Below are positions 35,070-35,615 of a DNA stretch of 64,000 nt, piece by piece. Made by a program: the position numbers and the translations under genes. Position 1 is the first letter of the stretch; the number at the start of each line of letters is the position of its first letter. The notes beneath the pieces are model-generated. The model was not told the origin of the DNA. It worked only from the letters and a program-made list of their open reading frames with translations, and ran no database searches. This DNA is from Eledone cirrhosa. Taxonomy: Eukaryota. The stretch lies in the NCBI GenBank assembly GCA_964016885.1, contig OZ024743.1:12028001-12092000 (forward strand). Reading direction: 5' to 3'.

Positions 35070-35615
35070 TAAGTATGTATATATATATACATGCACACAT
35101 AGTAGTATGTATATATACATACATGCACACATATATATATATGTACGAATGAATTCACCGAACATTTATTATAATGCTCGGTGTGTTTTTAAACAAACAT
35201 CCCAAATTAAGCCGTACAGTGTCTAGCAACCATCGTTGCTCATTTGTTCAACACTGACAAAGGAACGCTGTACTAGTTTCAAGCTTATTAGCTATCGTCA
35301 GCAACGTATACCTTCCTGCCAGATGATTGAATGTCTGAAAGTATATACTTTCCTTATGCATATTAACGGCTGAGCAGCGTAATTTGCATATCGAGTGAGT
35401 TAATCGGCCGAGCGCACCGAAAACGATAAACGGGAAAAATGAAACGAAATTTCATTTCTCACTCTTAGTACGGCTGTTACTTAAATATAAGTATGTATAC
35501 GTACATACATATATGTATACAGACGTACAGTAGTATGTATATATATATCTACATACATGTACACATATATATATGTACGTATGGATTCACCGAACATTTA
35601 TTATAATGCTCGGTA
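35070..35615 (-). mobile_element. Older diverged copy (~1.3 monomers) of the 500-bp HHR repeat (HHR at ~35264-35307)
   Basis: Minus: ACGTTG-CTGACGA-tAGCT AATA AGCTt-GAAAC-TA-GTA-CAGCGT; partial tandem duplication of GGATTCACCGAACATTTATTATAATGCTCGG-like sequence. Confidence 0.88.

What the first reader, a model, noticed from the sequence alone, without database searches (positions are those of the whole stretch)
35264..35307. Compensatory changes preserve the ribozyme in a diverged copy of the 500-bp monomer
Seen: stem I is ACGGTG/CATCGT in the array and ACGTTG/CAGCGT here, so a G-U pair became U-G. The core changes only at the free position 7 (CTGATGA to CTGACGA) and loop II changes AACA to AATA, while the flanks are clearly diverged. 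Inference: selection acts on RNA structure, so the family replicates through a self-cleaving RNA. This copy is ~1.3 monomers long, as expected from a circular or multimeric template.
Basis: seen in the sequence. Interest (0 to 1): 0.75.

Follow-up and report, generated by a model that had tools for sequence, protein, structure and literature searches.

The report
Hammerhead retrozyme subfamily with Penelope footprint
This is an ordinary copy of one subfamily of a mobile repeat with about 28,000 hammerhead motifs in this animal genome; its base-pair swap is shared by thousands of copies, and the repeat likely cuts its own RNA and is likely copied into new sites by Penelope-type jumping genes, a known kind of element.

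Summary
The sequence is as described: a type I hammerhead motif on the minus strand with U·G where the array has G·U. It is not a lone diverged copy. The exact 41-mer occurs 4,370 times, and the family core 28,412 times. The swap is one change in a source lineage, likely G·U to U·U to U·G, and the array is not its ancestor. One event cannot prove selection, but the family does support it. Across 19 haplotypes, including a sister family about 65% identical, 7 of 16 pairs change on both sides. The whole monomer keeps one predicted fold. Single copies decay neutrally. The copy is 1.26 units of 432 bp, not 500. 104 of 134 insertion ends fall at two fixed internal sites joined to (AT)n. A Neptune-type Penelope element shows the same pattern. 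Cleavage, circles and expression are untested. Verdict: new member of a known kind (non-LTR retrozyme). The scan noted the two-site ends earlier on other DNA of this genome.

The parts
35069..35614 (-). Retrozyme copy, subfamily called B1 here; 546 bp = 1.26 units of 432 bp; 344 nt upstream and 202 nt downstream of the predicted cut; one hammerhead only
35264..35307 (-). Type I hammerhead motif (the finding)
35302..35307 (-). Stem I 5' arm; position 2.3 = 35304 (U here; G, A or U in other subfamilies)
35265..35270 (-). Stem I 3' arm; position 1.3 = 35268 (G here, U in most other subfamilies). Predicted cut between 35271 and 35270, after GUA
   Evidence: cut site from the known hammerhead consensus
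35281..35294 (-). Stem II: U·U mismatch at its base, 4 pairs, loop AAUA
35272..35277 (-). Palindromic stem III (ACUAGU); predicted to pair with a second copy in a double hammerhead
35246..35333 (-). Extended stem I with internal loop (35263-35246 pairing with 35311-35332); this copy has a private change at 35332 that breaks its last pair
35069..35077 (-). 3' end of the insertion at internal site 1, running into (AT)n
34910..35068 (.). (TA)n tract, the likely target site
42045..45964 (-). Left arm of the subfamily A array: 8 hammerheads, units 490-514 bp, 3' end at internal site 2
45964..47062 (+). Right, inverted arm of the array: 2 hammerheads, 3' end at internal site 1; head-to-head with the left arm
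31430..31858 (-). Third family copy in the window (older A type, G·U), 3' end at site 2

Best explanation
The stretch is the hammerhead motif of one genomic copy of a non-coding repeat family (non-LTR retrozyme type) that is likely spread as RNA by a Penelope-type retrotransposon, and its U·G pair is a subfamily mark that likely arose once in a source element under selection for the RNA fold. Shown: family size, subfamilies, two-sided pair changes, neutral decay of copies, fixed 3' ends, (AT)n junctions and head-to-head arms. Inferred steps: (1) Tandem arrays are transcribed. (2) Two neighbouring motifs pair through the ACUAGU palindrome and cut after GUH, which releases 420-510 nt units that may be ligated into circles. 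(3) A PLE reverse transcriptase/GIY-YIG protein cuts a (TA)n tract, and the two DNA ends prime at two internal sites about 60 nt apart. (4) Copying runs on past the cleavage site, giving more-than-unit, tandem and inverted insertions with random 5' ends. (5) Only RNAs that keep the fold found new subfamilies; inserted copies such as this one then decay. The pair 2.3/1.3 likely went G·U (B0) to U·U (short-lived) to U·G (B1, B2).
For: Counts on one fixed 41-mer background: U·G 4,370, A-U 1,723, G·U 975, U·U 146. In the first 100 sites on contig 1, 98 form a standard pair and none is G·G. With the two letters masked, U·G copies form a group nested among G·U B0 copies, with U·U copies next to it. 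U·U is about 8% of the B0 background against 1-2% elsewhere (extrapolated). Stem I energy is -5.0 to -5.6 kcal/mol when paired and -1.3 for U·U. Across 19 haplotypes 96% of cells pair, 7 of 16 pairs change on both sides, and slid controls give 33-51%. In 72 loci found by a flank motif, subfamily-level changes occur at 0 of 11 core sites and 7 of 44 ribozyme sites against 83 of 259 flank sites (p=0.02, 0.03). Changes at the cleavage triplet stay within GUA/GUU/GUC. Monomers of 8 subfamilies fold to one branched shape, z -5.7 to -14.9, and 19 of 91 consensus pairs have two-sided changes. The double hammerhead is 10.8 kcal/mol below two single ones. 104 of 134 arm ends lie at two sites, 98 of them joined to (AT)n. 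Opposite-strand neighbours are head-to-head in 25 of 26 cases. A Neptune-like PLE family has 27 of 27 true ends at two sites 50-56 nt apart.
Against: No cleavage, circle or expression data. The G·U to U·G change is one event. Tree support for the U·U sister position is weak (83/76), and 36 of 70 U·U copies sit on U·G backgrounds, mostly as private reversions, so the site may be a mutation hot spot. The shared-to-private ratio test is not significant (p=0.47 for the 44 nt, 0.07 for the core), and the upstream flank is about as conserved as the ribozyme (p=0.39). Most two-sided changes come from one split (family E against A/B); the two pair-counting measures do not beat the shuffles (175/500, 392/500). 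The unconstrained fold of a dimer (-215.8) lies below the active double form (-211.6). Fold z-scores are inflated by TA-rich palindromes. No sequence homology was found between the retrozyme and the PLE 3' regions, so the partner is a candidate only. In a lizard PLE, hammerhead cleavage was not needed for insertion in vitro (PMC11167929 passage), and 8 of 9 predicted frog retrozyme dimers did not cleave (preprint).
Confidence: 0.72

Rival explanations
1. A PLE passenger whose fold is kept for binding and priming by the reverse transcriptase. Uncut linear multimeric transcripts are the template, and self-cleavage or circles play little part.
For: About 98 of 100 copies read through the cleavage site, with no pile-up of 5' ends there. 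The 3' ends lie far from the ribozyme. The motif has a weak stem III and a U·U at the base of stem II. PMC11167929 found unprocessed RNA to be the main substrate.
Against: The 11 catalytic nucleotides show no subfamily-level change, stay the same in a family 65% identical, and position 17 moves only among A, U and C. That pattern fits selection for catalysis.
Confidence: 0.2
2. The family is under structural selection, but this G·U/U·G swap is two neutral transversions fixed by chance in a source element.
For: It is a single event. U·U copies exist (146), so the mismatch was tolerated. A wobble-to-wobble change is weak evidence by itself.
Against: All large subfamilies keep a standard pair at this site, and family E has U-A there. 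U·U costs about 4 kcal/mol and is rare.
Confidence: 0.25
3. Satellite DNA spread and homogenised at DNA level; the hairpins are DNA palindromes.
For: Arrays show higher-order periodicity, which unequal crossing-over can make.
Against: Copies are dispersed over many contigs with polar ends: fixed 3', scattered 5', head-to-head arms. A helix whose strands lie about 200 nt apart changes on both sides.
Confidence: 0.04
4. This locus is kept by selection for a host function.
For: The core is intact at this copy.
Against: About 80 of 100 flank-found copies also keep the core pattern, as expected of young copies. This one carries private changes, one breaking a stem pair, and has a single motif.
Confidence: 0.03

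Closest known systems
Metazoan non-LTR retrozymes (Cervera and de la Pena 2020, PMC7229834; parts 2-4 of 6 read)
   Same: Tandem non-coding units with one type I hammerhead, low GC, thousands of copies, highly paired predicted monomer. Axolotl HHR_Amex1 has a one-pair helix III with a palindromic tetraloop; HHR_Amex2 has U·U at the base of helix II; both cut better as dimers.
   Different: Units of 420-570 nt, against about 170-400 there. Both weakening features occur in one motif. An internal (TA)n hairpin varies in length. Fixed 3' ends and inverted arms are not described in the parts read. Expression and circles were shown there, not here.
pDo500 satellite of Dolichopoda crickets (Martinsen et al. 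2010, PMC2837043; abstract and passages)
   Same: A 500-bp repeat whose hammerhead is more conserved than the rest, with compensatory changes in stems I and II.
   Different: Treated as satellite DNA and compared across species. Here shared and private changes are separated, and the flanks appear structured too.
Penelope-like elements, Neptune/Naiad type (Craig et al. 2021, PMC8557442, passages; Cervera and de la Pena 2014, PMC4209133, part 1 of 4 and passages; PMC11167929, passages)
   Same: 5' truncation, partial tandems, inverted 5'-truncated copies, a tail at one end, (TA)n targeting, internal start of reverse transcription, type I hammerheads.
   Different: No ORF. The tail is 59-74 nt, against 30-40 bp in Craig et al. 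No pLTR homologue was found among the PLE loci examined.
Retrozymes as non-autonomous PLE derivatives (bioRxiv 10.64898/2026.07.22.740005; parts 1-3 of 5 read)
   Same: The proposed dependence on PLEs; units up to 972 bp, so the size here is not unusual.
   Different: Their evidence is co-occurrence and pLTR phylogeny in frogs. The words tail, covariation, compensatory, target site and head-to-head do not occur in its main text. Supplements were not seen.

Membership tests
Type I hammerhead ribozyme | Core CUGANGA, GAAA, NUH with open stem I | tested here: met
Type I hammerhead ribozyme | Stems I-III supported by two-sided changes | tested here: met
   stems I and II vary on both sides; stem III is invariant and palindromic
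Type I hammerhead ribozyme | G10.1-C11.1 pair | tested here: not met
   U·U here, C·A in an older subfamily, G-C in family E. U·U is a described natural variant (PMC3088659 passage; PMC7229834)
Type I hammerhead ribozyme | Match to an Rfam hammerhead model | tested here: not met
Type I hammerhead ribozyme | Self-cleavage after NUH | not testable with these tools
   needs an in vitro assay
Non-LTR retrozyme | Tandem non-coding units, one type I hammerhead each, many dispersed loci | tested here: met
   this copy itself is a 1.26-unit single-motif derivative
Non-LTR retrozyme | Highly self-paired monomer | tested here: met
   (prediction only)
Non-LTR retrozyme | Expressed as linear and circular unit-length RNA | not testable with these tools
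   no RNA run available to lay
Non-LTR retrozyme | Autonomous PLEs in the same genome | tested here: met
   RT plus GIY-YIG frames of 551-1096 aa
PLE-mobilised element | Inverted 5'-truncated arm, tail at one end, microsatellite target | tested here: met
PLE-mobilised element | Sequence homology to a PLE pLTR | tested here: inconclusive
   none among 45 PLE loci and 17 3' regions, a small part of 10,598 candidates
PLE-mobilised element | Target-site duplication | not tested
   hidden by (TA)n tracts

The most novel reading that the evidence does not exclude
This genome records the full cycle of an animal retrozyme. An RNA circle, held in one branched fold by compensatory change along its whole length, is copied by a specific Neptune-type Penelope enzyme from both ends of a cut (TA)n tract at two fixed internal sites. 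The copies preserve a compensatory valley crossing (G·U, then a rare U·U, then a burst of U·G) in a ribozyme stem.
Probability: 0.4. Interest if true: 0.6.

Novelty: new member of a known kind. Interest (0 to 1): 0.36.

Why it matters
The papers read here propose, but do not show, that Penelope-like elements move animal retrozymes. The shared two-site ends name a candidate enzyme family and two priming sites, which can be tested in the existing in vitro PLE assay. The subfamily series also gives a natural mutant panel for a weak, probably dimer-dependent hammerhead. The base-pair swap alone is of small interest: such changes are in print for a cricket repeat.

Tried and rejected
Rfam: no match at gathering score in the window, and only chance matches around the motif. 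Sequencing runs: no RNA holder listed. Laying four contig runs gave many variants in one run and 0-2 contigs in the other three, so no cross-species covariation could be drawn. RNA-editing scars: no strand excess of A>G over T>C among private changes (24 vs 18, p=0.44); T>G exceeded A>C (17 vs 4, p=0.004), unexplained. Recombination at the cleavage junction as the source of U·U: rejected, because the downstream diagnostics match the upstream ones. Apparent hybrids of families A and E (L050, L256) are neighbouring insertions into one (TA)n tract. Linear cut monomers as main template: about 2 of 100 copies start within a few bases of the cut. The LINE frames in the window (APE plus RT) were considered as partner and set aside, as the ends are PLE-like. 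A G·G exact count was not run. Rooting the tree on family E is unreliable (long branch); age order rests on end-branch lengths. One literature search that combined retrozyme with a guessed taxon listed no paper with the word retrozyme among 15 shown.

Full report
Observation. The predicted cut lies between 35271 and 35270, after GUA. Stem II starts with U·U, and stem III is one pair plus a palindromic loop. The copy spans 35069-35614, 1.26 units of 432 bp, with one motif (one search used an end one base too far).

It is a subfamily member. The window lies in a 3.0-Gb animal genome. A search with this copy scored 40 of 2,157 candidates, all 96-100% identical. The core pattern has 28,412 matches against 2 for the control. 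The same pattern ending in GUU or GUC has 11,688 more, mostly a sister family E of 466-470 nt at about 65% identity, plus an older subfamily D with C·A at the base of stem II. On one fixed 41-mer background the pair states number U·G 4,370, A-U 1,723, G·U 975 and U·U 146. In the first 100 core sites of contig 1 (57 loci) the states were U·G 49, G·U 36, A-U 11, U·U 2, C-G 2 and G·G 0; one C-G is a truncation artefact.

History of the pair. With the two letters masked, a tree of 63 hand-picked copies puts all U·G copies, the window copy included, in one group nested among G·U copies of a precursor subfamily B0. U·U copies are its nearest neighbours, with weak support (83/76). The array subfamily A lies at the far end of another line, reached through A-U copies (searches agree, with the letters unmasked). 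I classified 70 of the 146 U·U sites: 36 lie on U·G backgrounds, 23 on B0 or B0/B1, 10 on A-U/A and 1 was unclassified. On U·G backgrounds the tandem neighbours were U·G 15 times and U·U 4 times, so most of those are private reversions. Extrapolated, U·U is about 8% of the B0 background and 1-2% of the others (using 30 of 975 G·U sites). This fits a short-lived U·U source but also a mutation hot spot. The U·U helix is about 4 kcal/mol weaker. So 'G-U became U-G' is likely right within the B line, as one event, and not from the array.

Selection test. To avoid selecting on the ribozyme I sampled 100 sites (72 loci) by an upstream flank motif and used one copy per locus plus the window copy. Letters shared by 3 or more loci were counted as subfamily-level and rarer ones as private. 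Subfamily-level change occurs at 0 of 11 core sites, 7 of 44 ribozyme sites, 27 of 119 upstream sites and 46 of 96 downstream sites. Ribozyme against all flank gives p=0.03, against upstream p=0.39, against downstream p=0.0003. Private changes run at 0.011 against 0.014 per base (p=0.16), and the ratio test is not significant (p=0.47; core 0.07). Inserted copies thus decay neutrally, and constraint shows among source elements. On 19 haplotypes chosen across subfamilies, 96% of cells pair, 7 of 16 pairs change on both sides and the covariation score exceeds all 500 shuffles. The two pair-counting measures do not, and much of the signal is the single A/B against E split.

The whole unit is structured. 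Cut-to-cut monomers of 8 subfamilies, folded as circles, give one branched shape with z -5.7 to -14.9 against 12 shuffles each. On 16 monomers, 19 of 91 consensus pairs change on both sides, among them a helix whose strands lie about 200 nt apart. This likely explains why the upstream flank is conserved. In an array dimer the double hammerhead is 10.8 kcal/mol below two single ones and 4.2 above the unconstrained fold.

How copies are inserted. Of 134 arm 3' ends, 104 fall at two internal sites, 59-62 nt apart in A/B and 74 in E, some 215-305 nt after the cut; 98 of the 104 join (AT)n. Three of the 30 others are artefacts of a broken motif inside one array. In 22 loci with one arm per strand, 18 use one site each and none uses the same site twice. 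One of the 18 (L097) is a tail-to-tail neighbour pair, which leaves 17 of 21. Opposite-strand neighbours are head-to-head in 25 of 26 cases. 5' ends are scattered (output partly cut). Of 100 sites found by the sequence just after the cut, about 2 start there and 5 start within the motif. The template therefore spans the cut site, as a circle or an uncut multimer would. The window copy ends at site 1; the window array uses site 2 on its left arm and site 1 on its right.

Candidate partner. The genome has 10,598 GIY-YIG candidates, 150 scored. Several lie in RT-bearing frames of up to 1,096 aa. One family has a CX4CxxC linker, described for Neptune elements in PMC8557442, and a hammerhead-like motif with U·U at the base of stem II. 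In 30 of its 40 best copies, 27 are true ends at two sites 50-56 nt apart, nearly all joined to (AT)n, and 3 read on into more element sequence; 7 inverted pairs use one site each. Another PLE family ends at one site only. I found no sequence homology to the retrozyme, so this is a candidate by footprint.

Comparison with print. Non-LTR retrozymes, dimer-dependent motifs and the U·U variant are described. Conservation and compensatory change in a 500-bp hammerhead repeat is described for cave crickets. PLE tails, inversions and (TA)n bias are described. Searches and the term look-up found no paper showing these footprints on retrozyme copies; the library is incomplete and no supplements were read. 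Earlier notes of this scan report the two-site ends for a 422-nt unit and for the 467-nt family in this genome; I had measured these before the look-up.

Verdict. Observation confirmed, interpretation partly supported, new member of a known kind, interest 0.36.

Noticed in passing
window 42045-47062: Both inverted arms alternate T/A at one monomer position, which suggests a dimeric template; a second alternating change is confined to the left arm, which suggests later expansion by dimer units. Periods of 2 and about 4 occur in other arrays (L117, L312, L327).
   Followed up: partly
window 4763-4787 (-) and 4875-4902 (+): A different hammerhead family (G-C closed stem II) in a short head-to-head palindrome of about 250 bp next to a (TA)n tract.
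   Followed up: no
window 37328-40965 (-): LINE-type element with endonuclease and RT frames (181 and 1,033 aa); further LINE fragments at 13112-13744, 24458-25111 and 55724-57755.
   Followed up: partly
L251, L260, L276, L278: Older subfamily D has C·A at 10.1/11.1 and GUU at the cut, so this position swaps between two mismatches and G-C across families.
   Followed up: partly
window 35069-35130: The 3' part of the copy has a local duplication replacing about 25 nt of the TA-rich hairpin.
   Followed up: no
window 34727-34909 and L398: The same short repeat follows a (TA)n tract here and beside a PLE end elsewhere; likely another TA-targeting element.
   Followed up: no
L367, L368, L371, L375, L369, L370, L373: Hammerhead-like motifs near PLE loci also have U·U at the base of stem II.
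   Followed up: no
L050, L256, L377, L393: Different retrozyme families and PLEs sit side by side in single (TA)n tracts.
   Followed up: partly
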